This document shows positions 356 through 32,000 of a stretch of DNA of 32,000 nt, in pieces. How positions within the stretch are numbered: the stretch's first letter is position 1; every line of letters starts with the position of its first letter. The position numbers and the translations under genes are program-made. The stretch comes from Candidatus Saccharimonadota bacterium (lineage in GTDB: Bacteria > Patescibacteriota > Gracilibacteria > BD1-5 > UBA6164). The notes under the pieces are model-generated. The model was not told the DNA's origin, ran no database searches, and was given only the letters and a program-made list of their open reading frames with translations. The stretch is from NCBI GenBank assembly GCA_004563595.2, contig CP042461.1, positions 1,110,001-1,142,000 on the forward strand. The letters run 5' to 3'.

Positions 356-1558
356 ATGGCCCAAGTTGGAATCAGAGAATTTGATGCAAAAGCAATGTAC
401 TATGAATCTATATGAGAAAACTACGCTTGATATCAAATAAAAAAAACACTTGATATATCTCTCCTTTCCCCTGAAAAAAAGTATGTTATTAAACCTGATA
501 TGCTCTTTTGAAAAAGAGGAAAAAGAGGGCTTTTATGACTGAAACTTGATAAAAACTGAGTAAATAATTGGCTTCATAATAAATTACATTCAAAAGTAAA
601 TATAGACTGAGTTGATTGAGAATTAGATGTATTTTTAGCTGAAGAATTCTCCCCACTCACAAAAGAATATTATATATCTTTTTCTCAGGATCGAGACTGA
701 GACACTCTCACATTTTCTTCTGAATGAGGAATAGATATAGAAGAAAACTGGAATAAAACAACAAGTATTGTACTCTCTCCCCTTTCAAACCTTCACAAAA
801 CAGATCTAGAAAAAATTTGAATAGATGAAAGTTCCCTACAAAAAATTATTACGAAACTCTGGAACTTTTATAGAAATTATTGATTTGTATATTTAGAAAT
901 CAATCCACTATGAGTTGATAAAAATTGAAATTTTATAATCGTTGATATGGTTGCGAAAGTTGATAACTGTGAATTTTTTAGACAAAAAGATCATTGGAAA
1001 ACTCTAGAATTACCTCAAAGTTTTGGATATAAAGAAAATAAAAAAGAAAAATATATACGTGAACTTGATGCTCAAACATGAGCAAGTATGAAATTTAAAA
1101 TACTCAATAAAGATGCCGAAATTTGGACTCTCCTTGCTTGAGGATGAGGCTCCCTCGTCATTACTGATACTCTCTGAAGCTTATGATTTGCTGATGAAAT
1201 ATGAAACTACTGAGAACTCTCAGGAAATCCTGATAGAGAAAATACAAGAGAATATACCAGAGCCCTTATAGAACAAATGCTCGAAAATAATATCAAGTGA
1301 AAATATCTCATCATCGCATGAGCTATAGCAAATTTCACAAAAATTGATACTACCTTTGCTTGAATTATTGATATACTTGAAGAAAAAGCAGTAGAATTAC
1401 AAGAGCAAAAAATACAAATATTGGTAAGAAGAGGCTGACTCAATGATAAAAAATGATTAACTATTATAAAAGAGGCTTGTGATAGACTCTGACTTCCTAT
1501 AAAAATCGCAAATTCAGACATATATATGACAGATATATTAAAAGAAATTACATTATAA
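356..1558 (+). CDS. aclB: ATP-citrate lyase, ATP-grasp (beta) subunit
   Basis: 400 aa with TGA read as Gly. It is colinear with the N-terminal ~425 aa of ATP-citrate lyase: KPDMLFGKRGKRGLLGL, SSEGGIDIEENW, YLEINPL, EIWTLLAGGGGSLVITDTLGSLGFADEIGNYGELSGNP, IIAGAIANFT, VRRGG. By hand count there are 26 in-frame TGA codons, several at invariant Gly. Trp is encoded by TGG. Confidence 0.85.
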
Positions 1559-1569
1559 AATAAATATTC

Positions 1570-3360
1570 ATGTTTTCCAGAAACTCATTTGCAATAATAT
1601 ATTGATTACAAACTCAAGCAGCCCAAAAAATGCTTGATTTTGATTATCTGTGTGAAAGAGAAGCTTCAGTACTTGCTTTTATTAACGCAGGAAAACAAAA
1701 GATCAACCACAAACTCTTTTATTGAGACACTGAGATCTTAATACCTAGTTATCCAAATATAATTTCTCTTCCAGAACAAATCAAACAAAAAACTGACACT
1801 CTCGTAAATTTTGCATCTTTTAGAAGCGCAGCTCAGGCAACAAATGAAGCACTTGAAAGTAAAATATTCAAAAATGTTATTATCATCGCAGAATGAATTC
1901 CAGAAAGACAGACAATAGAGATCATAGAAAAAAATAAACAATACTGAGTCAATATTATTGGTCCTGCAACTGTTTGAGCCATGTCAGCATGAGAATTTAG
2001 AGTATGAAACACCTGAGGAAGTTTAGATAATATTGTCAGCTCTAAACTGTATCAAAAATGAAGTATATGACTTGTATCCAAGTCTGGTGGAATGAGTAAT
2101 GAAATGAGGAGAATAATCGCAGATAGAACAAATGGAACAAGTATATCTATTGCCCTTGGTTGAGATAAGTATAACATAATGACATTTACTGATGTCATGA
2201 AAAATTTTGAAGCAGACGATGAAGTAAAAATGATTGTTATGCTCTGAGAGATCTGATGAAGAGAAGAAAATAAAATAGCTGATATGATAACTGCCTGAGA
2301 AATCAAAAAACCAGTGGTTGCTTGGTGTATAGGAACCATTGGTGATACTCTCAAATGAGATGTACAATTCTGACATGCATGAGCAAAATCAAATGCAAAT
2401 GAAGAAACAGCCAATTATAAAAATAATAAACTAAAAAAGGCCTGAGCCCATGTTCCTGAAAGTTTTATAGATTTTTGAGATAAGATAGAAGAAGCATATC
2501 ACCAAGTTAATCCTGGTTTTCCTAAAGAAGAGGGGGCTAGGGGCTGAAGTTATAATATATCTGAAAAAATAAAAATCATGAACAATAGAAAATCTACTCA
2601 ATTTACATCCACTATTTCAGATGAAAGATGAGCAGAACTCACTTACAATAAAAGACCTATTTCTGAATATGCTCAAAAATGAAGTTTTGCAGATGTAATC
2701 TGAAACCTATGGTTAAAAAAAGATTTACCTGAATATGCACTTGATTTTATTAATACAACTTTGATACTTCTTGCTGATCACTGACCTGCCGTGTCAGGGG
2801 CTACAAACGCTATTATTACTGCAAGAGCAGGAAATGACTTAAAATCATCTCTGATCGCATGATTAACTACTATTTGACCGAAGTTTGGTTGAGCAATTGA
2901 TGGAGCTGCAAATTATTTTTCGCAAGCAGTACATGATAAAATTACTCCTGAAAAATTTGTTGAATCAATGAGAGAAGCCGAAATAAATATTCCTGGAATA
3001 TGACATAAAGTAAAGTCAAAGTTTAACCCAGATAAAAGGTGTGAAATACTCCTAAATCTGAGTAAAAAGTTCCCTCAAGCACAACATTTACAGTTTGCAC
3101 TTGAAGTAGAAAAACTCACTCTAGAAAAAAAATCAAACCTTATACTGAATGTAGATGGAATGGTTGCAGCAATGTTTCTAGATATATTTCAAGATATATG
3201 AATGGATTATGAAGAGATAAAAGAATATATTGATATCTGAATATTTAATGCCTTCTTTATCCTTGCAAGAACAACAGGTTTTATAGGACATATAATAGAT
3301 CAAAAGAGATCAAAAGAATGACTCTATAGAACACCTTGGGAAGATATCATGTATGATTAA
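1570..3360 (+). CDS. aclA: ATP-citrate lyase, alpha subunit (CoA-ligase plus citryl-CoA lyase domains)
   Basis: 596 aa, starting 11 nt after aclB. Motifs: IIAEGIPE, GPATVGAM, SKSGGMSNE, the catalytic-His motif VQFGHAGA, then the citrate-synthase-like part [49 protein letters not shown]. Many of the Gly residues in these motifs are TGA. Confidence 0.9.
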
Positions 3361-11898: not shown

Positions 11899-13329
11899 TT
11901 ATGCTGCTTCATCAATAAAAAACTCGCGCAATTTTTCTGTCTCTTTACCCCTCATTAATTGAAGATATCTTATATTTTCCTCTATTGTATATATGTCATC
12001 GTCATCCAAACCTCATTTTGATAGTTCTGATACCTTATAGTAAAGAACGTTCATAAAAGTATCAAAAAAATAATCTCATTTTTCTTCACTTTGAAGAAGT
12101 GCAGGAAAAAATTTATCTGAAAATACCTGGTTTGAAATTAATTCTATGATAGCAGGCTTCACAGCTTTTGGACTCAAGGATTTAAACAATGATAACACTC
12201 TATACGCTTCTCATTCGGGGTCCTTGTTCTCTTTGAGCATATCATTTGCAATGGTTAATAAGGATTCCCCATTTTTTGCATTCTCCTTTGAGCTTGTTGC
12301 GTATCAAAACACTAGTCATAATTTTATGTCTTTTCCTGTAAGGTCATTACGAAGGGATAATTCTTCCTCAGAAGATTTTTCGATCCTCTCTACAAAGTTT
12401 TTTATATGTTCGTCTCTATTGTCTTGTGTTGTTCAACCATTGTTAAAGAGTATAAAAAACTCATCTCATCATAATCTAATAACTCTATCATTTGCTCTGA
12501 CACAACTTTCTAAAAACCTCGCAACTTTTATAAGTGCTTTATCTCAAAAGAGTTGTCAATTTTCATCATTAATTTTTTTAAATGATGAAACATCTATAAA
12601 AATACCTGAATAATCATGCTTTTGCCTGTTTAGTATCTCATTAAAGTATGTAGAATTATACAATCATGTCATCCCATCAGAATACTTTTGTTTCATTTTA
12701 TTTGATTTTTCCTCTATAAGTTTTGAGATATTTTTTCCCTCTAATAAATTTTTTAATACTATTAGGTCATGTTTGTATAATATTTCATCATTTGTTTGTG
12801 ATTCAAAAGTCATAACAATATACTCTTCTCGACCTCATGGAAGTTCAAATTTTACTTGTATACACTCTTCTCAAGATTTGTACGTCTCTCAATCTCATAA
12901 AAATTGTACTCATTCTAAAATTGCATCACTCTTTTTTTTATCAAATTTTTCAATTCTTTCTGCAAACACATCTGAGCTTTCATCTTTTGAAATACATTCT
13001 ATAGCTCATTCTCATACAATATGCTGTACTGAAGAAAGTTGAATATTTTTTATTCTTGAATTCAAGCTTTCCCCTACTACTTTCATATACTCCTCAATTT
13101 CAATTGATCATAAATCATCTGGAGCGAATTCATCCGGGCTTACTCATAGGTCCCTTAATACTGCAGCTGATATTCAGTTTGAATCGCTCAGTTCCAAAAG
13201 TTCTTCTACTTTCATCTTCGAAAATTTGACCAACATTTTCAACTGTTCTTTTTTTTCTTCACGAGGAGTTCATTCTAAAGAGAGTTTTATAAGTGGTCTA
13301 TATTGCATTGAAGTGTTCTTTCAAGTCAT
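11899..13329 (-). CDS. GGDEF-domain diguanylate cyclase with an uncharacterised N-terminal region
   Basis: 476 aa. FIDVSSFKKINDENGQLFGDKALIKVARFLESCVRANDRVIRLGGDEFFILF. Both Gly of GGDEF are TGA TGA (12466-12471, minus strand). An RxxD I-site (RAND) sits 5 residues upstream of GGDEF. Confidence 0.85.
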
Positions 13330-18002: not shown

Positions 18003-18046
18003 ATACACAAAAAAACCAGAATGAATATTCTGGTTTTTTTGTGTAT
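18003..18046. terminator. Bidirectional terminator with a 20-bp perfect stem
   Basis: ATACACAAAAAAACCAGAAT gaat ATTCTGGTTTTTTTGTGTAT lies between convergent rpoD and the surface-protein gene. Its last base is the first base of that gene's stop codon complement. Confidence 0.7.
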
Positions 18047-20832
18047 TAGTCAAATAATGGAGGAGGTGTCAGTTGAATTTTTTGGTTGTATTTTATTACA
18101 ACTGGATAAAAATATTCTTCATCTGTATTTACAAAAACTGAAGTTCATCATTTTGCAGACAGATCTGCAGATGTAATACTCCCATCTAAGTTACTATCAT
18201 ATATAAAGTATCTTCTTAAATAATTCAAATCATACTTTTGTGCTGCTTCTAGATCACATACTCCATTAAAATAATATGGACATCCTGGTGGAGTTGTCCT
18301 TGAAGCACCTATGGTATTTTCAGTAAATAGAGTTCCAAGGATATATAGTTGATCTTTTAGTATATCTTGAGTTCATCAACACGATGATGAGATTTCTCAA
18401 GAGGCACATATAAGAGTATTATAACTTAATAATGATTTATCAGCATACATAATAGCGTTTATTTCTGTTACACTTGGATCAACATAGATATTTCAACCAT
18501 TTCCCTCACTATCTTTTAAGATAATTATTCAAAGCAAATGAGATGATGGAGTAATATTTCATGTTATATATACATTTCAACCATATATAACTAATGTTTT
18601 ATTCTCTGATAAGACATTATAGTCTCATAGGTTTATTACTTTATTTTCTCCTGCATCCAATCATGAGAACTTATAATATTCAACTGTGTTATTCATAAGA
18701 TCTCGTTGTGATCAATCTCAACTATGTGGAACATTTTTTATTACTTCAAATACTTTTTTTCTCAAATCTCTTTTAAGAAGAGATTTCGTATTTTTTCAAA
18801 CTATTTGAATATCCTGATTACTTACGATCTGGTTATAATTTTCAGAGTGAATATTTCAATATATTTTAATTCATGTTTGTATTGTATTATCTGTTCATAC
18901 TCATCACCAATAATTTGATTTTCAAATAATATCTGAGTTATAGACAACTGGAATAGTTCAAATTCAGTTTGGAGCTGTAATATTATAGGATATATGCGTA
19001 GATAAGTATGTATTTTGAATATCATCAAGTAAACCTCATGATTGTGTGAGTAATGTATCTAGGTCATAACTGGTAATACCAAAGCTATTTTCAAACAACG
19101 ATGTATTGGATATATTTCACTGATTTCACTCAACAATATTTCATGCTACTCAACTCACTGATAGGTCTATAAGATTTGATATTACCCTTGATCAAGAGCC
19201 AAATTCAAGATAAATATTTCTCAAAGCAGGAGTTACTACTGATGCATTTCTTATAAGCTCAGTTTGAGAAGTCTGTCATGCTCATTCTACGAATCCATAT
19301 TCTAATAAATCTCATGTTATTTGAGTTTTGTATAAAGGCTGGAAAGAGAAAACTACATTACTACTTCCTATTAGCTGAGCCCCTATATTCCCTAAAGTTC
19401 AATTAATATCATATGTAATACTAGAAATACTAAAACTCGAAAATGGATCTGCAAACTCCTTCCCATTTGTTGCAGCTATATCGTATGTTGGTCAATACAC
19501 TTTAAAATCAAAAGGGTAGCTTCCATCTAAAGATGGTTGAGTATTAAATGAAGTATTTCCTGTTGAAAGCCTGTTACTATAACTCGTGTTTGATGGAATA
19601 TTTAAATATACAGCATCTTGTGTTTGAGTGTACTGATTTCTTCTTAAATTATTTATTACATCAAAATTCAGATCTATCGTTCTTCATATTCATGATGCTG
19701 GTATAATTTCATTTCAATATATATCCTCAAGCGTAATAATTAAGTTTTTTGAGCTTCCATCAGCAACATTTGCAGAATTTGATAGTTGATTTGTAGCATT
19801 ACTTGTAGATAAAATTGTATTTGCATATACATTATATGTAAAAGTCTTCAATGCAGTTACACTACTAGATCAATTTTCTATTCATATTTTATTTCCAGCT
19901 TCATCTTCTATATATGTAACCTTAAATCAATATTCTCTTCCTCCCGAAGATAATCTCATTAAATCAACATTTTCAGTAGAATGAGAAAAAATCAAACTTC
20001 AGGTATTCGAAAAATCAATGGTTGATAAATAATCTCCGGTTGCAGAGCTATAATCTTCAAAAAATCATTGTATTTTCACAATAGGAGATCATCATTGCTC
20101 AGAAACAACTACTGAAATATTTTGAGAATTTGTTGCTAACAAATCAGAGTTATCTATTGGTGTTGTATTTCATATATCTGAAGCTGTTGGAGCTGTTTTA
20201 TCAATTTTAACGATTGCTATTCATGAGTAGATATAACCATTTCAGGCAATATCTTTTCATCTAAAACAAATGTATCTCACCCCTTCTGTATTATATATTT
20301 TTCTATAGTCAGTAACCCATGTACCTCCAGAATCACAAGTAAATGGAACAACTGACTCTCTGTATTGATAACTACTAAAATCACATAAACTTCATCATGC
20401 ATCAAAACAGGTAACCGTAACCATTACATTTCATTTTGCCCATGTATCAGTAGTTGATACAGCTCCCCCAACGCTATATCCGATTAATGGGTTTGAGCCA
20501 TCCCATTTAAGACAATGCATCGTTCATGATCATGATCATACGAGTATGGCATTAGTAGTTCCTGAATTTAATAGATCAGTGTTAAAAGAAGGTGTTGGAA
20601 GCAAGCTTCATGAACTATCCGTCACAGATATATCATTATCATAACCAGGTGGTGTTCATCATGTTATATCCCCATCATCTGGGCATATTGTACAAGTGGG
20701 ATCACCTTGAGGACATATTGTAGTTCATGGGTCAGTATATATTACAGCTGTGTTCCCATACCAATTTGCATATGAAAGATTATAACTCCCTAACGAAAGG
20801 AGAAGTAATACGACTCATAATAACTTCCTCAT
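18046..20832 (-). CDS. Large secreted/surface protein (928 aa) with a Cys-rich N-terminal region
   Basis: Sec-type signal peptide MRKLLGVVLLLLSLGSYNLSYA. Cys-rich start TTICPQGDPTCTICPDDGD...MHCLKWDG...VTCFDAGGSLCDF...FTCDSGG...YICF. An Ig-like-domain hallmark, IVKIDKTAPTASD, is followed by long Ser/Thr/Asn-rich beta-like sequence. The C-terminus reads PPGCPYYFNGVCDLEAAQKYDLNYLRRY. All 46 sequence lines were hand-scanned with no in-frame TAA/TAG. An in-frame upstream ATG exists at 20877. Confidence 0.7.
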
Positions 20833-20900
20833 AAAAAAAATATATAGAAATAAATTATATCCTATATATTTTCTCATATTTTGAATATTTTTGCAAATAT

Positions 20901-22010
20901 CTAATACTCCAAATTTGGGTAATTTTTATTTACTTGTTTAAAATGTTCTATTTGTCTTTTTTTTGCACGTATTATGACCTCTGAACTAGGATTTAATTCT
21001 TTCATTAAAGTATCCATTCATAAAATCACATAATCTATTTCCTGAGATATTTCTTCTCATAACTTTGTTAGTTTTGCGTATTTTTTTATTACTTTTTGGA
21101 GAAATTTTGTTTTTATGTGATATAAAACTATTTTTTCTAACCACATCATATTCTCTCATAAATAGCCATTTTTATAAGCCTTCATAATAATATACATTGT
21201 TGGTGCAAAAGCGTGATATCCAAGAAATACTCCATAAATATGTCTCGCATCTGGTCTAATAGCAGAGTAATACTTTTCATCCTTATTATTGAGGATAATT
21301 GGATCAAATTGAAGTAATAGATTTAATTTATTATGCGATGATTCATGAATAATCGCTTCTAAATTATTGATTTCAGGGCAACTTGAATTAATGGTATATC
21401 CTAAATAAATATGACCAATACATTCATTATAACTTGCCGAGTTATGTATTGATTTCGCAGTTCCAAGTGGCACAATTTTCTGAATAATTTGATTGAGTTC
21501 ATCGTAAGTTCATTCATCTATTTGTTGCAATAATCTGAATGTTTTCTCGTAAACTCATAGCCATTCTTCTTCTCATCTTTCTCACCATCACAATATTCAT
21601 CAAGTTGTATGATGGTCAGGGTGTGCTTCAAAGATATTATAGGGATTATTATCTTTAGCCGTAAGCCTCACATTTGTTCATGAAATTTTTTGTCACTGAT
21701 TCATGCAAAGGTTTTTACTCCCAATTCACTCTTCTAAATATATATTTATTTCATTTTTTAATTTTTGTTGTTCTATAGCATAAAATTCCTCACTATCTAG
21801 ATCATTAATAATCAGAAAATTTATTATCCCAGATTGATCAGGGTTTAAGATAAAATCCCTATTTTCAACTATTAAGAGTTCCTCTATCTCTTCTGATAAG
21901 ATTCAGTTATTTCTTAACTTTTCTAAGTGAGAGATGAGCCTTTTATAGTATTTTTCCAAATATTCCTTTAATAAAGCTGAGTTTTTCTGTCAAAGTACGT
22001 AGTATTTCAT
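20901..22010 (-). CDS. HExxH-motif protein resembling aKG-HExxH-type peptide beta-hydroxylases (HEXXH motif domain, TIGR04267-like)
   Basis: 369 aa. MKYYVLGQKNSALLKEYL...IVPLGTAKSIHNSASYNECIGHIYLGY...LEAIIHESSHNKLNLLLQFDPI...YYSAIRPDARHIYGVFLGYHAF. ATG 22010 is the first ATG after TAG 22032-22034; TAG stop at 20901-20903. The assignment rests on the HExxH motif plus the downstream R-P-x-x-R/H-rich segment only. Confidence 0.65.
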
Positions 22011-22067: not shown

Positions 22068-23384
22068 ATGCAATATTTTTTGTACTTACTTACTATTCCC
22101 TTTTTATATTTTAACTTTAAAATTGTTCTTTCTGATCTTAAATTTAAGATCATTCCAAATAAATACTTAGCAAAAATACTCTATATGCTCCCTATATGGT
22201 ATGCGTATTTAATCCTATGATGAACAATTATAGTCTCAGATGTATGGTTCATTATCCTACAAATATTTCTATCTTTCATTATTTCATTTTGACTATATGC
22301 TTATGGTATATGGTCAGCTTGAGATGCAAAATACTTATTAGTATTATCGCTATTTATCCCTCATGTATGAACTCTTACATTTATATGAAACATTGCATTG
22401 TTAACTCTTACATATTTATTGTTATACTTTATTTACTTTTATATATGAAAATGTATACTTCAATCCACATATAGAAAAAGTTTATATTGAAATATTTTTA
22501 ATGACATTAAAGAAATATTTCAATATAAACTTCAGAATAAAACCTCAGAAAATTATAAACAAAAAATCATATATAAAATATCTTTATGAGTGATAAATTT
22601 TTTCGTTATTTTTATCATTTTTAGGCTCTTAAGAATTGCAACATTAAACTGGCTCTATAGTTCATGAACTGATTTTAGCATCATTTCAACAACTGTTTCT
22701 CAGCACAGCACCTTGGTAGTTTTACTTTTGATAATTATTGTATTATGAGCCTTCTATGTAACTAAGAAGATAATGTATTTTTTCAAAAGAATCTTACATG
22801 ACTTTTTTTGAACACAAAGTAAGTATCTCTATAATTGAGTCCTACTACTCAGTTTATCATGTTATATGCTATATGAATATGCATATCATCCCCTAGAAAT
22901 TACCCAGAGTATTACCCTTATTTTTACTGTTTATTTATCTATTTACCTATTTATTATCATACTCAAGTATGCCTCTAAGATTACTTTTCAATTATGAGAA
23001 GAAAAAAGTATTCAAGTAAGGTCCCTAAAGAAATGAGATATTATTGATAAAGTATATCTAAAAAATGTGATAAATAATGTAAATCACAAAAATAAAAAAA
23101 CGGTCGATAACTATAAAGAGGCTCTCAATATCATAAATAATTCCAGCTATCAACTCACCGTCGATGATGTAAAAAAAATACAATCTATTATTAAACAAAT
23201 AAATACAGATTGTAGTACTGATCGCATAATGGCATCTTGATTTCAGTCCATCAATAACATAAAAGTTATGAATACTTTTTCTTTTTGATGATATATCTGG
23301 TCTGGTTTTATGTTGAGTGTCTTCTTATGAAGTTATTTCTCAGAAAAAATAGTACTCTCCTTACAACACATGTTCAGAATATAA
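22068..23384 (+). CDS. A24-family (prepilin/preflagellin peptidase-like) membrane aspartic peptidase with a long C-terminal extension
   Basis: 438 aa. MQYFLYLLTIPFLYFNFKIVLSDLKFKIIPN supplies the first catalytic-Asp context. GLYAYGIWSAGDAKYLLVLSLF supplies the GxGD-type second Asp (the G preceding D is TGA). Several further hydrophobic segments and a ~110-aa soluble stretch follow (KKGDIIDKVYLKNV...). It is the only plus-strand gene in the right half. An alternative TTG start exists at 22038. Confidence 0.6.
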
Positions 23385-23406: not shown

Positions 23407-24135
23407 TTAACTTTTAGATGTAATATCTCGTGACTGTAGTATGTATATAGTCCCCCCTCTTACTGTGAATTCAATATCTTGTGCTTTGTCTAATATTCAT
23501 TCAATTTCCCTACATTTTTTATATAATAAATCACTAAAATTAATAAGAATATCTTCTTCAAAAAATAATGATTCAAATCTCGTACTTTGCTTCTTCTTCT
23601 CGCTTACTCATAGATAATTTTCTCCTCCATAAAAACTGTAAATTTTAAGTTTTGTTGTCTCTCTGTCAATTCCGAAACAAAATGGTTTTTTAATCTCTCA
23701 CTGTACTAGGGGTTCATTTATTCCTGGTATGATCTCAAAATAACACTCATTATTATGATGTTTTGTGAAACATACACCACTAAAATCTCCCACAATAAAT
23801 TCTTGTAAAATATATTTCTTTTCAAGCTTTCATATATCAAGGTTATGTAAATCTTTATAATGAGTATATTTTTCTGTTGTTTGTTCCTCACATATATTTA
23901 CCGCATATTTTAAATCTGCGTGAGTGTAAATTGGTGCATACGATTCAAATATTCATGCGAATGCATGACTACTACTATCTTCACATGAAAAAGAAGATCT
24001 AAGAATGAAAGGAGGGTCTAATTGAAGAGTAGAAATATCATGTATATCACTATATGTCTTACGTACAATAAAAGATGGAACATTAAAATTACTTTCCAGT
24101 AATAATTTCAGATTATCAGCTTTTGCTCAATGCAT
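23407..24135 (-). CDS. PEP/pyruvate-binding ATP-grasp domain protein (PPDK_N, PF01326-like), stand-alone
   Basis: 242 aa. MHGAKADNLKLL..NVPSFIV, FILRSSFSCEDSSSHAFAGIFESY, LQEFIVGDFSGVCFTKHH...IIPGINEPLVQGEIKKP, DIEFTVRGGTIYILQSRDIT. All four blocks of the PpsA/PPDK/rifampicin-phosphotransferase nucleotide-binding domain are present. Confidence 0.75.
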
Positions 24136-24140
24136 AAAAT

Positions 24141-25145
24141 TTATTTAATATTAATTTTCTTAGATACCGTATTAATTTCTAGAGTATCATCATTTTGACA
24201 AGAAAAAAATATACCTTCTGCTCCCAGCATTAAAGGAATTCATAACTCTCTACATGTAATTGCTGCATGGGATAATTCTGAACGAGTTTCAACACATATA
24301 CATTGTGCATTATAAAATGCCCTCAAAAATTCTGGATTTGTATTTTCTGCGACCATAATACTTCATTTATTTAAATCACTGGCAGATTCAACATTATAGA
24401 CTTTATGCACTTTTCATTCATAGCTATCTTGTTGTATTGAAATATTTATATCGTAACTTATACTCCTCCTCTGCGTTTTTTGAGAATCAAAATATTGTTC
24501 TATGCTAGAATATCACATGTTCAATATTTCTTGATAGAACTGAATTGCTCTTTTAAATTTAACAGCTTGAAAACGAAAAAAGTATTTTTCAAGTATGCTC
24601 TGGTATTTAAATGTTTTTTGCTGAAGATTTTTAACAATAGAAATATATTTAAGATATTCTGAAGTATAAAAATTATAATTCTCTTGAATATCACTTACAT
24701 CACAGTTAATCATATTAATAATTTCAGCTGATCAGAGCACATAATCATTATCACGTATTTTTTGAAATGAATATTCTTTTTCAAAATCAAGAGAAAGAGG
24801 TAATCATTCTACCATGATATGTTCATTTTTGAGCTCGTTATAGTGTTTTTGAGAACAAATAAATATATCAATTTCAAAACTTTTGTTCAATAATTTTTCA
24901 TACTGACATTGTAATAATCAATGTTTTTTAGATGGGTAAAATGCTCCTAAATCACATCAAATTGAAATAGGTATGTATATTTTAATAGATGATAAATCAA
25001 TATGTAATATATCAGTCAATCTCTTGCTGACCAATACTGGTAATAATCTATTATCTAATAAGATTCCCTGTCACTGAAAAAAATCATGCTGTAATAATGC
25101 AATAATTTCTTGTATTTGTTCTTTTAAACTAAGACTATGTTTCAT
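24141..25145 (-). CDS. PEP-utilising-enzyme mobile (swivel phospho-His) domain protein with an uncharacterised ~230-aa N-terminal domain
   Basis: 334 aa. The C-terminus reads KGSIMVAENTNPEFLRAFYNAQCICVETRSELSHAAITCRELGIPLMLGAEG, matching the PF00391 pattern G.ilV....P......a.aivt..G...SHaAI.aRElGIP. Its stop is 5 nt before the ATG of the ATG-grasp... of the ATP-grasp gene. Confidence 0.7.
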
Positions 25146-25147
25146 AT

Positions 25148-27046
25148 CTATTTTATAGGATTTAATTCACTATCTCAAAGTTTATCATAATAAGTAGTCC
25201 AAATTCATTCACACTTATCATACAGTTTACATCATTCACATTTTTTTGTTCTGACTCTTCATGTATTTTTTCTTCACTCTACAACATCATCGTTATAAAA
25301 ATCTGGTGCACTATGGGTCACATTTGTATATATATCAATCTCTTTTAATTCTGAAATATTATCTTCTAAGTAATCTTCAAAGTGGCATAAAGGAACATAT
25401 CTTACTCGATAGATCATACCATTTGCATTTCCCCAATCGAGAAGTTCTCTCATATGTGGTGAAGCTTCTGATATTTTTGGCATAAGTTCTTCAAAATTAT
25501 CATGAACCCCTCACACATTTGGATCAGCAAATATAAATTCAGAACTTCAAAAGCACTTAAGTTTTTTTACAAATTTTCAAATTCAAAGTACATTATCAAA
25601 ATTTCACTTCTCAATTGCTGTATTGGTACCAATGCTTTCATTTGGAAATCATAATTCTTGCCAGATTTGAATTCATTTTATGAGTTTATCAAACGCTCCT
25701 GGAACTGCTACTAACTTATCATGTAATTCTGCATTATCGGCATGAATCGAAAATACTACGCTATCAAGAATATCCATATCATAAAGTTTTTGAGAAAACT
25801 CACGGTCAGAAAATTTCAATCAGTTTGTTACCAAATATACATGACGAAAATGAAGAGATTTAATAAATTTCATGATCACAAAAAAATCTTTTCTGATAGT
25901 GACTTCTCATCATATAATCTCCAATATTTCAGTTCCATTTTGCTTTGCAATTAATATGTCTTTTAGGACTTCTTTCGTCGTTCTATTTATATTACGTTTA
26001 TTTAAATCTATACAGAACCTACACACAATATTACATCCATATCATACAAAAATAACCGTTTTTTTTCATGCAAAACTATCTTTTACATCTTCAATTGGTT
26101 TAAATCTAAAATTGTCAGTGTTTTCAATAATTTTTAATTTATCAATATCTTTTTTATAAAATGGCTGTATTTCTTCTTTTCAATTAAATTCACAATAGGT
26201 CTCGTGAATTCACATACAATACTTTGATAACTTACATGTACTACACTTCCCTGTAAAAGTGATTTCATGACTTGGAAGTGTTCTCCACATGTACTTCCAT
26301 AGTTTTTTTTCTTTTATGGTACACAGCGGAAAATGATACAATTTAAATTTATCTACTCAAAACTTTTCTCAATATTCCAAAAAAACCTTCTCATTTACTC
26401 ACATAACCTGAGTATAATTCATTTTTGTGAGTTTGATATTATCAATTGCTTGTCATTCAAACTCCATCATAATCGTAACAACACTATCAACCTGAGGAAA
26501 ATATTTATATATCAGTTCATACATTTTATCTAAAAACTTATAGTTTTGTCATTGAATAATAAGTCTTAATTCAAGAGTTTGATTATTAAATTTTTTATAT
26601 TTAAGGGCATTATGGATTCACTTCAATAGTTCTTCCCATGATCATTTTTTTCTCACAATTGCTTCGTGAGTTTCTTTGTTATAACCATGAATAGGAAATA
26701 CCAAATGATAATTTTCTAGGGTTGCTATTTGTTTCATAAAATCTATATTTGCAAACCTATCTCCATGCGTCAATTGTACCAGTGTTGATTGTGGAAATTT
26801 TTCTCTTATATATTGAAGTATTTTAAAATAATCTGGGTTCAAAGTTGGTTCACCTCATGTAATAGTCCAGTCATCTTTTAAATCAGGGAATCTATGAAAA
26901 TTTCTATCGTCACCTGATAAAAACCCATCAATTCTTGTTTTGATGGCCTCATAATGATAATCTTTTAATGTATATTTATAGTCAGCATCGTTTGAACACA
27001 TAGTACATTTGTGATCACAAGCTGGCCATAAGGCAATATCTGGCAT
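25148..27046 (-). CDS. Fused double radical SAM protein (two complete radical SAM modules in one 632-aa ORF)
   Basis: Module 1: WPACDHKCTMC (CX3CX2C, 26996-27019), ITGGEPTL, and the C-terminal Cys motif FPLC...GKCSTCKLSKYCMGIHETYC. Module 2: GYGCNIVCRFC (26012-26035), EIIGGEVT (GG is TGA TGA), YVPLCHF...KKCEGCKLYDKCEGIWTTYYDKLGDSELNPIK*. I hand-scanned every codion... every codon between the modules and found no TAA/TAG. The stop lies 2 nt before the next ATG. Confidence 0.75.
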
Positions 27047-27051
27047 ATTCT

Positions 27052-27570
27052 TTAGGTTAATTCATTAATAAGCCATTTAAAGAGAGGAAAATGCTCTCAC
27101 TTAAATGTATATAATTCAGAACATTCATAAGTAAAGTAAAGAAAATAATCTACTATATTATCTGTTTCAATTACTCATTTTTGTCATTCTCATATTTTCT
27201 TTCCATTTGAAGTATCTATTATCTTATTCAGAAAAACTTCATTTTTTCAAAAATCAAAGTAATCCTTATATCACTTGATAAACTGAATATCTGTATCAAA
27301 ATGAGAAAAACTTATCTTATACATTTCTTTTCTAAATCGAAATGTATATCAATTATCGAATTGAACCTCTCAGAGAAGATAAAAATAATAAAAAAGTAGC
27401 TTTTTCACTTCTTGAACCTCATTAATGTTAAAATCATTACAAGCTAATGTAGATTTTAAATAGTATAAAAGTTCGAACTGTCATATATTTTCTGTCTTAT
27501 AGGGGTTTGTTAGTCAGATAACTTCCTTGTATTGCTGGTTATCAAACAGCCTTAATATTTTATCGTTCAT
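27052..27570 (-). CDS. Hypothetical protein (172 aa)
   Basis: MNDKILRLFDNQQYKEVIGLTNPYKTENIGQFELLYYLKSTLA...FKGEHFPLFKWLINELT*. ATG at 27570 lies one codon after an in-frame TAG. The stop is 5 nt before the double radical SAM ATG. No family recognised. Confidence 0.5.
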
Positions 27571-27647: not shown

Positions 27648-28829
27648 TTATCTCACCTTTCACTCATCTATGTATAGCAAATAATTATAGCACAATTTCT
27701 CAATATTCATTAAGCCTTGGAATGCTTTACTTTCTCAAATATGATGCTCTCGATATAAAAAGGCTAAAGAAAACATAATCTCATCTGTTTCATCATTAAT
27801 ATATTTTCCATAATAGTTTAAAAAATCTTTCTTCGAGTTAGAAAAAAGAACATCTGACTTCAGATTACTTTCTAGAGAGAGGATTTGCATATTTTCATGA
27901 AAATTTAATTCAGAAAATTCATTGAAAAATTTTTGAACACTCTGTTTCAAGTATATGTAAAAATTTTCATAATCTCATAAAATGAGATTATTCTCTGCTA
28001 AAGTTTTATAAAATTTAAAATCATTTTTATTATTTATTTCTGCATCATGCAAAATTGTCATTAAAATATCTTGTGACTCATCATACTTTCATATCTTCTT
28101 TAAAGCTGCGGCTTTTCAAATAAATGGCTCAGGCTGACGATACTTATAATATGTTTCATTTAAAATAATAGATCCATTGAATAATGATATTGCTTTTTTT
28201 TGATCTCATAATGCAAGATAAATATATCCGAGCCGACTATATATAAAAGTAGGGATTTCAGAATGAGTATATCTTTTTTCAAGAATTTTTACGGCCTTAA
28301 TACAATACTTTTTCGCTGCACTCAGATACTTCTTATCTTTGTGCATTCTATATAATCGAGTTCCTAAAAAACGGGAGTATGCACAAAGCACATAAGGATT
28401 ATCAGTGTTGCATTCTAATAATTGTCTAAAAATTTCATTCATCTCTCGGCTTCATTTATTGTCATAGTATCGTACATACGCAGCGAGTGCATAGAAATTA
28501 TATTTATTTTCTTTCAATAATTCATCAACATTCTCTCATTGCTTCTGAGACATAAAGCATGGGTCAAGAATAGACTCATTTAAAAATAAAAAAATGTACC
28601 TCTTATCATATCAAAGAATAGACTCTCTACATTCACTAAAACCAATATCTAAATCCTGACGAGTATCTATATTCTTAAAATAAAAATATGGTCGTTGAAA
28701 CTTTTCTCTGCCTTTTAAATATCCCTTATATCAATGGTAATAAGCAAAATAATCTAAAAAAACCTCAAAGTCTTCTTTGTTCTTGAATTCTACCATACGC
28801 TCATATATATTATCAATAAATACACTCAT
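27648..28829 (-). CDS. TPR-like repeat protein
   Basis: 393 aa. TPR-like helical repeats, for example NPYVLCAYSRFLG, IYSRLGYIYLALGDQKKAISLFNGSI, FIGKAAALKKIGKYDESQDILMTIL. The first ATG at 28829 overlaps the upstream radical SAM ORF by 20 nt; an alternative ATG is at 28796. TAA stop at 27648-27650. Confidence 0.6.
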
Positions 28830-29679
28830 AGCAGCTTGAAAATAAGTCTCTTTTAGAATTAATTTCTTCTAATCTATTATAATAACGATCAAAATCTTTC
28901 TTTATTTTTTCATCGCTATCATACACATTTAACATATTTCTATTTTTTGATAAATAACATATATTCGTATGCATTGTTAAATCTCAATTTAACATAATAT
29001 TTATCTCATTCTCATCGTGAGTAAATGTCCCCAACTCATCTTTATATTTCATAAAGTAATAATACTTACAATTATCAGTTCATAACCTTGTAGAAACGAA
29101 TTTTTTACTATCATGAATGGGATATGGGTGTTTTCAAAATACTAAGTCTACGTTTTTAAACTTTTGTCATAGATAATATAAAAATTTAAATTCTGAGTTC
29201 TCAATGCTATATCTCACACTAAAAGGAGAAAAATAATTATGAGTATTGAGAAAATGGAATACTTTTACCCAATCTTTTTTATACTTTGTTACATTCATTT
29301 CATTTATATTTGAAACAAATGTATACTCAATGTTATAGATATTTTTTATTTCAACTAAATTTTCAAGGTACTCTTTATTATATGGGACAAGTCAAGATAC
29401 TTGAATAATAATCTTTAAATTTGGCTGAAATGAATGTACATACGTAATAAGATCAATAATATGCTTATTTGCAAACATATTACTTCAAAAAAAGGTAAAT
29501 CACTGTAAATAATCTCAGTCTACAATCAAAAAGGTTTTTCTAATTGACTCCTTGAGTTGAAGAATTTCTTCATCAGAATAAATACTCATTTCCATGACTC
29601 ATTCTTTACATGTATCACACCTCGTTATACATCCATGTCATAACTTAGTTATTAATTTTGGAACTTGGATTTTTAACAT
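28810..29679 (-). CDS. Small radical SAM protein, paralogue A (289 aa)
   Basis: MLKIQVPKLITKLGHGCITRCDTC (CX3CX2C). C-terminal Cys residues: TDNCKYY, LNGDLTMHTNICYL, SSCYECIYG*. The architecture is shared with the next two ORFs. Confidence 0.7.
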
Positions 29680-30613
29680 TATTATAATGGTTTACAAAGT
29701 ATGACTGGCAAAAATTACAAATATTTCAATCCTTTCATTTATTTTTATAATCATTCGACATAGACTCTAATGATTTTTTTAACACTATCGAATTCTCTAT
29801 TAAATCACTCTTTTTACTTTTAATATTTCATATTGAAAGTTCTTTGATTGATGAACAATATGGTCAATGTGGCATTATTTGATTTTCTGAAAAATCAAAC
29901 ATAAGAATATCTAGGTCCTTGCTCTTATCTGATATATAGTTCTTGGAAAGAAAAGAGCACTCCTTTTCTCATGAATATGAAAATAGCTCTGTTGAAAGGT
30001 CAATGTAACTTATAACTTTTGTTCATTCGCCTTCGGTAAAATACAATTTAGTGCCACTATCTAATAGTCATCTTAAAACATTTAAAGTTTTGTTTTTATC
30101 TACTCTATTCGAAGAAGAGTTTATTTCTCTATGTAAAATGAGTTTAGATTCTATATTTTTCCTTTTTAATAAATGTAATTTTGCAGGAATATCGTCAGTC
30201 AAAATATCCTCATTTAACCTTACAGATATTCAAAGTTTTATGGAAAAAAAAGGTTGAAAAATATCTATAAATTCTTTCACATCTGCATCGAAAATACCGT
30301 TTATATTTTTTATTTTTGTATATACCAATAGCTCATCTTTTCGCTTTAAAATCTTAAGTTTCATCAAAGTATAAATATATTTTTTAATGAAAGCTATGTT
30401 CGTTACAAAGTCTCAACACTGATTTAATGAAAGTGAATTATATGTAAGGTTATTTTTTTTTGCAAAATAAGAAAATTTCACCAAAAATTTGAGGTCTATT
30501 TTGCTTAATATTTCCTCGTTTCTGTTTGAGCTTATACAACTATAACATCATCTCGAACAATTATAATTATTAGGTATCGGATTCAAAACGAATCAATCAA
30601 TATTTATTTTCAT
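29645..30613 (-). CDS. Small radical SAM protein, paralogue B (322 aa)
   Basis: MKINIDGFVLNPIPNNYNCSRGCYSC (CX3CX2C; the G inside the motif is TGA). C-terminal Cys residues: ENQIMPHGPYCSS, GNICNFCQSY. The 3' end overlaps paralogue A by 35 nt in a different frame. Confidence 0.7.
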
Positions 30614-30621
30614 ATGTATGA

Positions 30622-31491
30622 TTATTGATAACTATACTTCCCTTTAATTATACATTTATAACAATTATGTTCAAATGTTTTTTCTTCATTATTCACGCTA
30701 TTAAGATATGATTTAAAGCTATTAAAATCAAATATTCTTTTCTCATTATCAAAAAATATATTTGATATTTTTAAGTCTGCCAAATAACACCTCGGAATAT
30801 GTGGTCTAATATCTCAATTTATAGATATTTCTAGGTCATAATATCAATCAAAGTCTTCAAAAATAATATCATTATTTTTGACTAAGAATGAGTTATGATA
30901 TTTGCAAAGTACATCTTCACTTGTTACAATTTCGTTATCATTATCAATCTGTAGTGCCTCAGAAATACTTAATTTCAATTGTTTATACCTTGTTAATAAT
31001 CGAAAATTTTTACTTTCTATTAACTCTATTTTTTTCTTATAATATATTTGAAATGAAATATTATCAATATAATCCTCCAAAAAAAATTCTAATAGCCTTA
31101 CCAATGATTTAAAATTATAAGTATTCAGGTTACTAATTGAAGTAGAAACATAAACTTGTATATTATATTTTTGTAATAAATATGCTAATATTTTATAAGT
31201 TCAAGGTTTATAGATATTTATATCTGAAATTTGAATTGCAATTCATCATTTTGGATCGAATTGATGTATATACAACATCAGCTCATCTATATCGCCGTAC
31301 AGTAATGGATCAACTCAAAAACAAAATATCTCACAGTCATTATTAAAGACTTGAAAAGTAGTTGCAATATTTTTCTTTAATTCAGACATGTCATAATACG
31401 TCTGAGAGGTATAATTATCACTACATCAAGTACATCAAGTATTACAACCTTTTCAAAGTCTGAAAAGGAGCCTTTTTGCTCCATATATCAT
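30622..31491 (-). CDS. Small radical SAM protein, paralogue C (289 aa)
   Basis: MIYGAKRLLFRLGKGCNTGCTGC (CX3CX2C with two TGA Gly inside the motif), CFGVDPLLYGDIDEL (GGEP-like), INGDIRPHIPRCYL, HNCYKCIIKG. ATG at 31491 lies one codon after the upstream gene's TAA. Confidence 0.7.
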
Positions 31492-31494
31492 ATC

Positions 31495-32000
31495 TTATAT
31501 ATTTATTAAATCACTCTGCCCATATGCAGAAATATACTCGTCAAATATTCCATAACAATCATCTTTAAAATCACACTTTCCACATTCTGGTAAATATGAT
31601 CTTCTTCCATAATCAGTATTATAGAGCTTATTCTCATATACCTCAGTTATATAATTTATCTTTTCAGTCTTCAGGTCAGCCCTTTTTTCTAAATCTCATA
31701 AAAATAAACATAGAGGGAATCAATCCCAGTATATTTTAATACCTTTTCCGTCAAACATTTCTATTGCTGATTTTATATTAAGAGAGGCTTCTTTCGGTGA
31801 ACAGAATAATGCATCATTATTTCAAGCACCAGAGGGTTCTAAAAGAGAAAACTTAATACTTAAGTTTTCATACGAAGTCTTTAAAAGACCATTCAAAGTG
31901 TCCTCTATGGAAGATAAATTATCAGAAATAACCACATAATTTAAAAATAATGAATCAAAACTTCTTTTTTTCAAAGAACCTATGATCTTTATGACTCATT
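31495..32000 (-). CDS. C-terminal part of a further radical SAM protein (5' end lies outside the window)
   Basis: ...IKIYWDGFPLCLFLGDLEK...RSYLPECGKCDFKDDCYGIFDEYISAYGQSDLINI*. The tail closely parallels module 2 of the double radical SAM protein (YVPLCHF...KKCEGCKLYDKCEGIWTTYYDKLGDSEL). The CX3CX2C motif itself is not in the window. Confidence 0.55.

What the first reader, a model, noticed from the sequence alone, without database searches (positions are those of the whole stretch)
23407..25145. Split rifampicin-phosphotransferase / PEP-synthase-like phosphotransferase inside the cluster
The ORF at 24141-25145 ends in a canonical swivel phospho-histidine domain (TRSELSHAAITCRELGIP), preceded by about 230 aa of unknown sequence. 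Five nt later comes a stand-alone ATP-grasp PPDK_N domain (RSSFSCEDSSSHAFAG, SGVCFT, DIEFTV..IYILQSRDIT). Together they rebuild the three-part logic of PpsA and rifampicin phosphotransferase (ATP-grasp, swivel His, substrate-binding domain), but split and permuted. The unknown N-terminal domain would be the candidate substrate-binding module. In this context it suggests ATP-dependent phosphorylation of the cluster's product, for example activation of Ser/Thr or a hydroxyl installed by the HExxH enzyme. This is a type of kinase not normally associated with RiPP pathways.
Basis: partly seen in the sequence, partly recalled or inferred. Interest (0 to 1): 0.66.

Follow-up and report, generated by a model that had tools for sequence, protein, structure and literature searches.

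The report
Mini split dikinase in His-Xaa-Ser cluster
Two adjacent genes encode a stripped-down, two-protein version of the rifampicin-phosphotransferase type of ATP-driven kinase, and it is always built into a radical-SAM operon that matures a peptide with His-Xaa-Ser repeats, a setting in which the papers I could search report no kinase of this type.

Summary
The genes lie on the minus strand and can only be read with genetic code 25 (TGA=Gly). Gene A (25145..24141, 334 aa) is an orphan ~235-aa N-terminal domain followed by a swivel phospho-histidine domain (PF00391, E=5e-14). His293 is invariant. Gene B starts 5 nt later (24135..23407, 242 aa). It is a minimised PPDK_N ATP-grasp (E=1e-17) that keeps the counterparts of RPH Lys22, Arg117, Thr136 and Glu297. 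The closest solved structures are Listeria rifampin phosphotransferase and HpeI. Splitting into [substrate domain + swivel] and [ATP-grasp] is already known from HpeHI, CreHI and PpsAB, so the split itself is not new. The context is new. In all eight independent loci found, all from TGA-recoded genomes, A and B are translationally coupled and sit beside an HxsC/HxsC4-type radical SAM enzyme. About 1.4 kb beyond the window edge the operon starts with HxsB and a 123-aa precursor ending in (HGS)6-HCS-W. The cluster is therefore an expanded His-Xaa-Ser system, not a generic RiPP cluster. The phospho-acceptor is unknown. It is most likely a hydroxyl on the HxS precursor, either Ser or a beta-hydroxy residue made by the HExxH enzyme. 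Verdict: a new variant of a known kinase kind, of moderately high interest.

The parts
24141..25145 (-). Gene A, 334 aa (code 25): orphan N-terminal domain (aa 1-~235) followed by a C-terminal swivel phospho-histidine domain
   Evidence: PF00391 E=4.7e-14. AlphaFold2 model pLDDT 81.5.
24441..25145 (-). A N-terminal domain (aa 1-235), the candidate substrate-binding module, found only in this small family
   Evidence: No Pfam or NCBIfam hit. An HMM of this part alone finds only the ~15 family members. hhalign against pre-swivel modules of other dikinases gives probability 0.2%. Foldseek finds no significant match for aa 1-120. Conserved residues: R33, D93, K198, Y212, N234.
24267..24269 (-). 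Codon CAT for His293, the predicted phospho-carrier histidine in the motif SELSHAAITCRE
   Evidence: Invariant in 10/10 family members and 7/7 paired loci. Aligns with His825 of RPH-Lm. Codon position.
23407..24135 (-). Gene B, 242 aa: minimal PPDK_N-type ATP-grasp, the ATP-binding subunit
   Evidence: PF01326 E=1.2e-17. PDB sequence hit to the RPH ATP-grasp domain 5hv6, E=2e-12. Model pLDDT 84.9, pTM 0.85. Foldseek: 5hv1 E=1e-11 with TM 0.65, HpeI 9goj E=2.6e-8. K5, R46, S65 and E222 correspond to RPH K22, R117, T136 and E297.
25148..27046 (-). Fused double radical SAM, 632 aa: HxsC-like N-half plus HxsC4-like C-half. Its stop codon is 2 nt upstream of the A start codon.
   Evidence: TIGR03977 E=1e-63 and NF038332 E=4e-41, both below the curated cut-offs. 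60-80% identical across loci.
27052..27570 (-). 172-aa protein conserved next to the HxsC-like enzyme; no family match. Possible HxsD-like partner (inference only).
27648..28829 (-). TPR protein, 393 aa
28810..31491 (-). Three paralogous ~290-320-aa radical-SAM-like proteins, each with an N-terminal CxxxCxxC motif (28810-29679, 29645-30613, 30622-31491)
31495..32000 (-). C-terminal part of a 298-aa HxsC-like radical SAM, cut by the window edge. Upstream, outside the window (equivalent coordinates ~32376-34135), lie a 324-aa membrane-anchored protein, the 123-aa HxS-repeat precursor (~33371-33742) and the C-terminal end (~120 aa) of a 482-aa HxsB gene that continues further upstream.
   Evidence: L019 is the same region from another assembly. 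Precursor: HxsA3 E=1.3e-9, HxsA4 E=5e-8. HxsB: TIGR03978 E=1e-25.
22068..23384 (+). Polytopic membrane protein with both A24/GXGD aspartyl-peptidase motifs; candidate leader peptidase. It converges on B.
20901..22010 (-). aKG-HExxH-type peptide beta-hydroxylase, 369 aa
   Evidence: TIGR04267 E=3e-15, above the cut-off. Present in 5 of 6 determinable loci.
18046..20877 (-). 943-aa secreted protein with no family match that always follows the cluster

Best explanation
A and B together form a miniaturised two-component ATP-dependent dikinase of the rifampin-phosphotransferase / HpeHI type. It works as a tailoring enzyme of an expanded His-Xaa-Ser (Hxs) peptide-maturation pathway. The proposed mechanism is as follows. 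B binds Mg-ATP in its ATP-grasp cleft. The C-terminal swivel domain of A docks on B, and His293 attacks the beta-phosphate of ATP. The gamma-phosphate is lost as Pi and AMP is released, leaving phospho-His293. The swivel domain then returns to A's own N-terminal domain, where the phosphoryl group passes to a hydroxyl of the substrate. The most likely substrate is the 123-aa HxS-repeat precursor, which has 10 HxS motifs and ends in (HGS)6-HCS-W. The acceptor would be a Ser of the repeats or a beta-hydroxy-His/Asp made by the neighbouring aKG-HExxH enzyme. The phosphate either stays as a mark or serves as a leaving group for later chemistry by the HxsB/HxsC-type radical SAM enzymes. Shown here: the domain identities, conservation of the catalytic residues, the obligatory gene pairing, and the linkage to the Hxs operon. 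Inferred: the reaction order (by homology with RPH, PEPS and HpeHI) and the identity of the acceptor.
For: Domains: PF00391 and PF01326. The best PDB sequence and fold matches for both proteins are RPH-Lm, and for B also HpeI, the ATP-grasp subunit of a known two-component dikinase. Catalytic residues: His293 is invariant. B K5, R46, S65 and E222 align with RPH K22, R117, T136 and E297, whose roles were tested by mutagenesis (PMC4844700). Pairing: A then B, with junctions from -32 to +5 nt, in the window/L019, L001, L002/3, L004, L005/6, L008/9, L010 and L020. No fused form appears among the full-length family members. Context: the pair always lies next to HxsC/HxsC4-like radical SAM genes. 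An HxsB gene and an HxS-repeat precursor head the operon in L019 (the window's genome) and in L004. Precedent for the two-component mechanism, including loss of activity on His mutation and phosphotransfer by the H subunit alone: PMC12167813. aKG-HExxH enzymes are known to beta-hydroxylate His and Asp in RiPPs (PMC12636437).
Against: No biochemical data exist. Every characterised RPH-like dikinase acts on a small molecule, not a peptide. A's N-terminal domain shows no detectable homology to the RIF-binding or HpeH substrate domains, so its role in substrate binding rests on position only. The canonical HXS system matures its effector without any kinase (PMC13128918). The precursor was seen in only 2 of the 8 loci. 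The others are cut by contig ends or, in L001 and L008, lack it nearby. The A+B complex could not be modelled.
Confidence: 0.55

Rival explanations
1. A/B is a two-component dikinase as described above, but its substrate is a small molecule (a metabolite, cofactor or antibiotic-like compound) rather than the Hxs peptide. Gene linkage would then reflect co-regulation or supply of a co-substrate.
For: All characterised relatives phosphorylate small molecules: rifampin for RPH, phenolics for HpeHI, CreHI and PpsAB, pyruvate for PEPS. NCBIfam's next-best matches are also small-molecule enzymes, PigC and RedH. A's substrate domain is small, about 235 aa. L001 and L008 carry A/B without a nearby precursor.
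Against: A and B are translationally coupled inside the radical SAM operon in eight loci, with 2 nt between the HxsC/C4 stop and the A start in the window. No small-molecule biosynthetic genes are present in the cluster. The family is found only in this context.
Confidence: 0.2
2. A/B is a phosphorelay or protein kinase. Phospho-His293 would be passed to another protein, as enzyme I passes phosphate to HPr. The target could be a radical SAM enzyme, the 172-aa partner protein or the large secreted protein, in order to regulate or energise maturation or export.
For: The swivel domain is shared with PTS enzyme I (Foldseek hits 1zym and 2hwg). The 943-aa secreted protein and the A24-like membrane protein always accompany the cluster. 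In canonical HXS the substrate is a whole protein that is processed and exported.
Against: No HPr-like or receiver partner was detected. B is the ATP-using dikinase type, not a PEP-binding domain. The closest relatives in sequence and fold are RPH and HpeI rather than enzyme I.
Confidence: 0.1
3. The pair is a decaying or non-catalytic remnant of a PEP synthase that serves only as a scaffold.
For: Both proteins are much shorter than their relatives: B lacks about 75 residues of PPDK_N, and A's substrate domain is about half the size of HpeH's. Sequence divergence between loci is high, at 30-57% identity.
Against: All tested catalytic residues are invariant across members that are only 30-57% identical. 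The reading frames are intact. Both models are confident. The two-gene arrangement is conserved with varied junctions.
Confidence: 0.05

Closest known systems
Two-component small-molecule dikinases HpeHI, CreHI and PpsAB (phenylphosphate synthase)
   Same: The domains are divided in the same way: one subunit carries the substrate domain plus the swivel His, the other is a separate ATP-grasp subunit (PMC12167813). HpeI (9goj) is a top fold match of B. The catalytic His is conserved.
   Different: HpeH is about 600 aa and HpeI about 340 aa, against 334 and 242 aa here. A's N-terminal domain has no detectable homology to the HpeH/RIF-binding domain. Those enzymes start the catabolism of phenolics in Actinomycetota and Pseudomonadota. 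This pair sits in a radical SAM peptide-maturation operon in code-25 bacteria.
Rifampin phosphotransferase (RPH-Lm; PDB 5fbs, 5hv1)
   Same: It is the best solved-structure match for both proteins by sequence and by fold. Lys22, Arg117, Thr136, Glu297 and His825 all have counterparts. The swivel domain is C-terminal to the substrate domain, as in A.
   Different: RPH is a single 867-aa chain ordered ATP-grasp, RIF-binding domain, swivel. Its 430-aa RIF-binding domain and the Arg666-Glu667 pair cannot be identified in A. It is an antibiotic-resistance enzyme.
PEP synthase (PpsA) and pyruvate phosphate dikinase
   Same: They share the ATP-grasp and swivel domains and the His phospho-carrier chemistry.
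   Different: The window has no PEP/pyruvate TIM-barrel domain. NCBIfam scores of 40-60 bits are far below the equivalog cut-offs of 600-880 bits. The regulatory Thr of the GGxTSH motif is replaced (SELSH).
Canonical His-Xaa-Ser (HXS) anti-phage system HxsABCD
   Same: HxsB-like and HxsC-like radical SAM enzymes and an HxS-repeat substrate with an N-terminal leader (PMC13128918).
   Different: The canonical system has four genes and no kinase. It is 99.7% Pseudomonadota, and its HxsA is an effector protein with a peptidoglycan-binding domain. Here there are at least six radical SAM or radical-SAM-like genes, a 123-aa precursor, the A/B dikinase, an aKG-HExxH hydroxylase, an A24-like peptidase and a ~940-aa secreted protein. 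The family scores fall below the equivalog cut-offs.
Known RiPP kinases (LanL/LanKC-type, HPr-kinase-like lasso peptide kinases, the cyanobactin kinase domain)
   Same: ATP-dependent O-phosphorylation of a ribosomal peptide, either as a final mark or as a leaving group (general knowledge; PMC12639078 listed).
   Different: They have unrelated folds and transfer the gamma-phosphate directly. None uses an ATP-grasp plus swivel-His dikinase. The searches found no report of a PEP-synthase-type enzyme in a RiPP or Hxs pathway.

Membership tests
PEP-utilising / RPH-like dikinase superfamily (ATP-grasp + swivel His) | Swivel phospho-histidine domain (PF00391) with the conserved catalytic His | tested here: met
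   PF00391 E=4.7e-14, above the cut-off. His293 is invariant and aligns with RPH His825.
PEP-utilising / RPH-like dikinase superfamily (ATP-grasp + swivel His) | PPDK_N-type ATP-grasp with Lys, Arg, Thr/Ser and Glu as nucleotide/Mg ligands | tested here: met
   PF01326 at 64.7 bits against a cut-off of 27. K5, R46, S65 and E222 are conserved. The fold matches 5hv1 and 9goj. The domain is truncated by about 75 residues.
PEP-utilising / RPH-like dikinase superfamily (ATP-grasp + swivel His) | ATP -> AMP + Pi with transfer of the beta-phosphate through His~P | not testable with these tools
   Needs biochemistry.
Two-component dikinase subfamily (HpeHI/CreHI/PpsAB) | Separate genes for [substrate domain + swivel] and [ATP-grasp], adjacent and both required | tested here: met
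   The split and the A-then-B order are conserved in 8 loci. Whether both are required could not be tested.
Two-component dikinase subfamily (HpeHI/CreHI/PpsAB) | Substrate domain homologous to the RIF-binding/HpeH domain (HpeH, CreH and PpsA share ~45% identity with each other) | tested here: not met
   No sequence, profile or fold similarity for A residues 1-235. Only the ~45 residues before the swivel match NF004882.
PEP synthase (PpsA) proper | C-terminal PEP/pyruvate-binding TIM-barrel domain; equivalog-level score | tested here: not met
   No such domain is found in A, B or their neighbours. Scores are 40-60 bits against cut-offs of 598-883 bits.
His-Xaa-Ser (Hxs) system | Substrate protein with tandem His-Xaa-Ser repeats | tested here: met
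   The 123-aa ORF at L019 394-765 has 10 HxS motifs, 7 of them in tandem. L004 has 7. It matches HxsA3/A4 models at 1e-9 and 5e-8, below the cut-offs. It lies about 1.4 kb outside the window.
His-Xaa-Ser (Hxs) system | Paired radical SAM maturases HxsB and HxsC | tested here: met
   HxsC: TIGR03977 at 215 bits against a cut-off of 268. HxsB: TIGR03978 at E=1e-25 on the C-terminal 120 aa available. These are related proteins but fall below equivalog thresholds.
His-Xaa-Ser (Hxs) system | HxsD partner protein; four-gene architecture; anti-phage function | tested here: inconclusive
   There is no HxsD model hit. The 172-aa neighbour of the HxsC-like gene has no family match. The architecture is much larger than four genes. 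PADLOC gives no defence-specific hit. Function cannot be tested here.

The most novel reading that the evidence does not exclude
A/B would be the first swivel-histidine (PEP-synthase/RPH-type) dikinase that acts on a ribosomal peptide. It would phosphorylate Ser, or beta-hydroxy-His, within the His-Xaa-Ser repeats so that the phosphate acts as a leaving group. This would enable His-to-Ser-derived crosslinks (for example of the histidinoalanine type) or prime the repeats for the 6-8 radical SAM enzymes. The orphan 235-aa N-terminal domain of A would then be a new peptide-binding fold, and the CPR cluster would give a chemically tractable entry into the still unsolved chemistry of Hxs maturation.
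Probability: 0.3. Interest if true: 0.85.

Novelty: new variant of a known kind. Interest (0 to 1): 0.62.

Why it matters
RPH-like dikinases are known as antibiotic-resistance and aromatic-catabolism enzymes that act on small molecules. Finding a minimal two-protein version hard-wired into a peptide-maturation operon would extend the chemistry of this superfamily to ribosomal peptides or proteins, and would add a new kinase type to RiPP enzymology. It also shows that the His-Xaa-Ser system, only recently shown to be an anti-phage device in Proteobacteria and with unresolved radical SAM chemistry, exists in a much more elaborate form in tiny-genome, TGA-recoded candidate-phyla bacteria. For a genome of about 1.3 Mb, roughly 16 kb is a large investment. 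The small size of the enzyme (334 + 242 aa) makes it an attractive minimal model for the swivel mechanism.

Tried and rejected
1. Table 11 ORF calling failed. It was replaced by code 25 after the stop-codon test.
2. A search for a conserved small precursor ORF inside the first loci found only shadow ORFs. The 68-aa ORF in L008 is a transposase-like fragment. The large secreted proteins have no HxS repeats.
3. I suspected A-B fusion proteins among the distant hits (P0099, P0073 and others). They turned out to be tandem [module + swivel] repeats, not fusions.
4. The GTDB genome scan and two metagenome scans gave mostly swivel-only hits that lack the cluster. Only L020 was a true member.
B was therefore modelled from P0011, which has W at six TGA positions.
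6. The last homologue search, using the truncated edge gene, found nothing. The P0011 look-up finally gave the upstream DNA.
7. Homology of A's N-terminal domain to the pre-swivel modules of other dikinases was rejected by an N-only HMM search and by hhalign.
8. The PADLOC defence library gave nothing specific. No tRNA lies in the window to confirm the code directly.
Full report
**1. Checking the observation**

With the standard bacterial code the region 23407-25145 has no long ORF, and the minus-strand translation is broken by stops. Reading TGA as a sense codon raises the total ORF length in the window from 6.5 kb to 48 kb; reading TAG or TAA through does not do this. Three TGA codons in gene B (residues 3, 61 and 146) align with glycines conserved in homologues from standard-code organisms: the GGK, FAG and VSG motifs. 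The conserved Gly of the swivel motif 'IPxxxG' is GGA in the window but TGA in several homologues. The window (28-30% GC) therefore uses code 25, TGA=Gly. By established knowledge this code is the mark of Gracilibacteria and Absconditabacteria (SR1).

Under code 25 the two genes are:
- A = 25145..24141 (minus strand, 334 aa).
- B = 24135..23407 (minus strand, 242 aa).

They are 5 nt apart. A starts 2 nt after the stop of the preceding radical SAM gene.

Family matches:
- Pfam: PEP-utilizers at E=4.7e-14 (A residues 259-325) and PPDK_N at E=1.2e-17 (B residues 25-241). Nothing matches A residues 1-~235.
- NCBIfam gives only sub-threshold partial hits to PEP synthases, PigC/RedH and rifamycin phosphotransferase.

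**2. Anatomy of the two proteins**

The best solved-structure relatives of both proteins are the Listeria rifampin phosphotransferase entries 5fbs, 5hv1 and 5hv6.

*Gene A.*
- His293, in SELSHAAITC[RK]E, is invariant in all ten family members and in seven paired loci. It aligns with the catalytic His825 of RPH.
- The AlphaFold2 model (pLDDT 81.5) has an alpha/beta N-terminal subdomain, two long helices and the swivel domain.
- Foldseek's significant matches go through the swivel domain (pyruvate kinase C-terminal domain, PPDK, enzyme I). RPH is the only one that aligns over 230-267 columns. Residues 1-120 have no significant match.
- An HMM of residues 1-235 alone finds only the family's own ~15 members.
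- hhalign against the pre-swivel modules of other dikinases gives probability 0.2%.

The N-terminal domain is therefore an orphan. Its assignment as the substrate-binding module rests on its position, which matches the RIF-binding domain of RPH and the substrate domain of HpeH, and on conserved polar residues (R33, D93, K198, Y212, N234).

*Gene B.*
- K5, R46, S65 and E222 correspond to RPH Lys22, Arg117, Thr136 and Glu297. The roles of those residues in ATP and Mg binding were tested by mutagenesis (PMC4844700).
- The motifs RSS..ED, FAG, QEF, SGV.FT, QDIEFT and LQSR.IT are conserved.
- B lacks the first ~20 residues and a ~55-residue helical insert of the canonical domain.
- Its model (pLDDT 84.9, pTM 0.85) matches the RPH ATP-grasp domain (E=1e-11, TM 0.65), HpeI (9goj, E=2.6e-8) and PEP synthase 2ols.

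Both proteins therefore look catalytically competent, and both are unusually small.

**3. Distribution and context**

The family is very rare.
- Full-length A: 10 clusters among 5.8 billion sequences, and about 8 representatives among 1.84 billion.
- B: 16 clusters.
- No full-length family member is a fusion.

Every locus with context is TGA-recoded and has A followed directly by B, with junctions from -32 to +5 nt. These are the window/L019, L001, L002/3, L004, L005/6, L008/9, L010 and L020. In all of them the pair lies inside a cluster rich in radical SAM genes. The hallmark of that cluster is a fused or split HxsC/HxsC4-like enzyme that is 60-80% identical between loci, whereas A is only 30-57% identical.

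Frequent companions are:
- a 165-175-aa protein next to the HxsC-like gene;
- a TPR protein;
- a class V aminotransferase;
- further radical SAM paralogues;
- an A24/GXGD-type membrane peptidase;
- an aKG-HExxH peptide beta-hydroxylase, present in 5 of 6 determinable loci and absent from the 16-kb L008 contig;
- an 800-1035-aa secreted protein.

Hits in GTDB genomes and JGI metagenomes outside this set share only the swivel domain. A lone B-like gene in a Nanoarchaeota MAG has an unrelated context.

**4. What the cluster is**

The operon runs off the window at position 32000. L019, the same region from another assembly, supplies the missing 2.1 kb. Upstream lie:
- the rest of a 298-aa HxsC-like enzyme;
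- a 324-aa membrane-anchored protein;
- a 123-aa ORF ending in SGHGSHGSHGSHGSHGSHGSHCSW;
- the end of a 482-aa radical SAM enzyme that matches HxsB (TIGR03978, E=1e-25).

The 123-aa protein carries ten His-Xaa-Ser motifs and matches the HxsA3 and HxsA4 repeat-protein models (E=1.3e-9 and 5e-8). L004 begins with a homologous precursor that ends in HNSHGSHGSHGSHCSCC.

The cluster is therefore an expanded His-Xaa-Ser system. The canonical system, HxsABCD, was recently shown to be an anti-phage device. In it HxsB, HxsC and HxsD process an HxS-repeat effector and add a +8 Da modification. It has four genes, no kinase, and is 99.7% proteobacterial (PMC13128918). None of the family scores here reaches the curated equivalog cut-offs, so this is a relative of that system, not a member of the canonical one.

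The precursor leader contains KLKG-FLTDE, which resembles a prepilin-type G|FxxxE site. The cluster's membrane protein keeps both A24 catalytic motifs. This suggests it is the leader peptidase, but that is inference.

**5. Mechanism**

The reaction order below is taken by homology from RPH, PEP synthase and HpeHI.
1. B binds ATP.
2. The swivel domain of A docks on B.
3. His293 takes the beta-phosphate, releasing AMP and Pi.
4. The domain swings back to A's N-terminal domain and phosphorylates a hydroxyl group.

I put the acceptor on the HxS precursor, for three reasons. First, the pair is translationally coupled within the maturation operon in every locus. Second, the cluster contains no small-molecule pathway. 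Third, the precursor is rich in Ser, and the HExxH enzyme family is known to make beta-hydroxy-His and beta-hydroxy-Asp (PMC12636437). Whether the phosphate is retained or serves as a leaving group is unknown.

The main rival is a small-molecule substrate, as for all characterised relatives. Lesser rivals are a protein phosphorelay and a non-catalytic remnant. Confidence in the enzyme class and its two-component nature is high, about 0.9. Confidence that the acceptor is the Hxs peptide is moderate, about 0.55 for the whole statement.

**6. Comparison and novelty**

The 'split and permuted' layout is not new. HpeHI, CreHI and PpsAB form a characterised two-component subfamily with the same division of labour (PMC12167813). 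What differs here is:
- the size, 334 + 242 aa against about 600 + 340 aa;
- the orphan substrate domain;
- the setting, a radical SAM/His-Xaa-Ser peptide-maturation operon in code-25 candidate-phyla bacteria.

Full-text searches found no report of a PEP-synthase/RPH-type enzyme in a RiPP or Hxs pathway. That library is incomplete, so this is only absence of evidence.

I rate the finding as a new variant of a known kind, with interest 0.62. It rests on a solid, checkable enzyme assignment in an unexpected and rare context, and it bears on the unresolved chemistry of Hxs maturation. The substrate, however, is still unproven.

Noticed in passing
whole window; for example TGA codons at 24240-24242, 24127-24129, 23953-23955 and 23698-23700: The genome uses TGA as a glycine codon (code 25), as shown by TGA falling on conserved Gly positions. 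Under table 11 almost no gene in the window is callable.
   Followed up: yes
outside the window; equivalent coordinates ~33371-33742, minus strand (L019:394-765). Also L004:1-306.: A 123-aa precursor with 10 His-Xaa-Ser motifs, ending in (HGS)6-HCS-W, preceded by an HxsB-like radical SAM gene. This identifies the whole cluster as an expanded Hxs system.
   Followed up: yes
window 22068-23384 (+) and L019:394-765: The membrane protein convergent with B keeps both A24/GXGD aspartyl-peptidase motifs in all loci. The precursor leader has a prepilin-like G|FxxxE site (KLKG-FLTDE). It may be a dedicated leader peptidase.
   Followed up: partly
window 18046-20877 (-): A 943-aa secreted protein with no Pfam match and no HxS repeats follows the cluster in the window, L001, L005, L008 and L010. 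Its role is unknown.
   Followed up: partly
window 356-1558 (+) and 1570-3360 (+): A two-subunit ATP-citrate lyase (Citrate_bind 6e-57; Ligase_CoA + Citrate_synt) in what appears to be a small candidate-phyla genome.
   Followed up: no
window 11899-13329 (-): A GGDEF diguanylate cyclase domain protein (E=5e-25).
   Followed up: no
proteins P0036, P0099, P0073, P0059, P0092; loci L021, L026, L028, L030, L035: Large dikinase-like proteins and loci in Patescibacteria MAGs carry 2-4 tandem [~250-aa module + swivel His] units, some with a single N-terminal ATP-grasp. This multi-swivel architecture was not explained here.
   Followed up: partly
L007:10001-10774: A Nanoarchaeota MAG has a lone 257-aa mini ATP-grasp, 33% identical to B, with no swivel-domain partner nearby.
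   Followed up: partly
window 28810-31491 (-): Three paralogous ~290-320-aa proteins have an N-terminal CxxxCxxC motif but match Radical_SAM models only weakly or not at all. They are conserved only in L005 and L010.
   Followed up: partly
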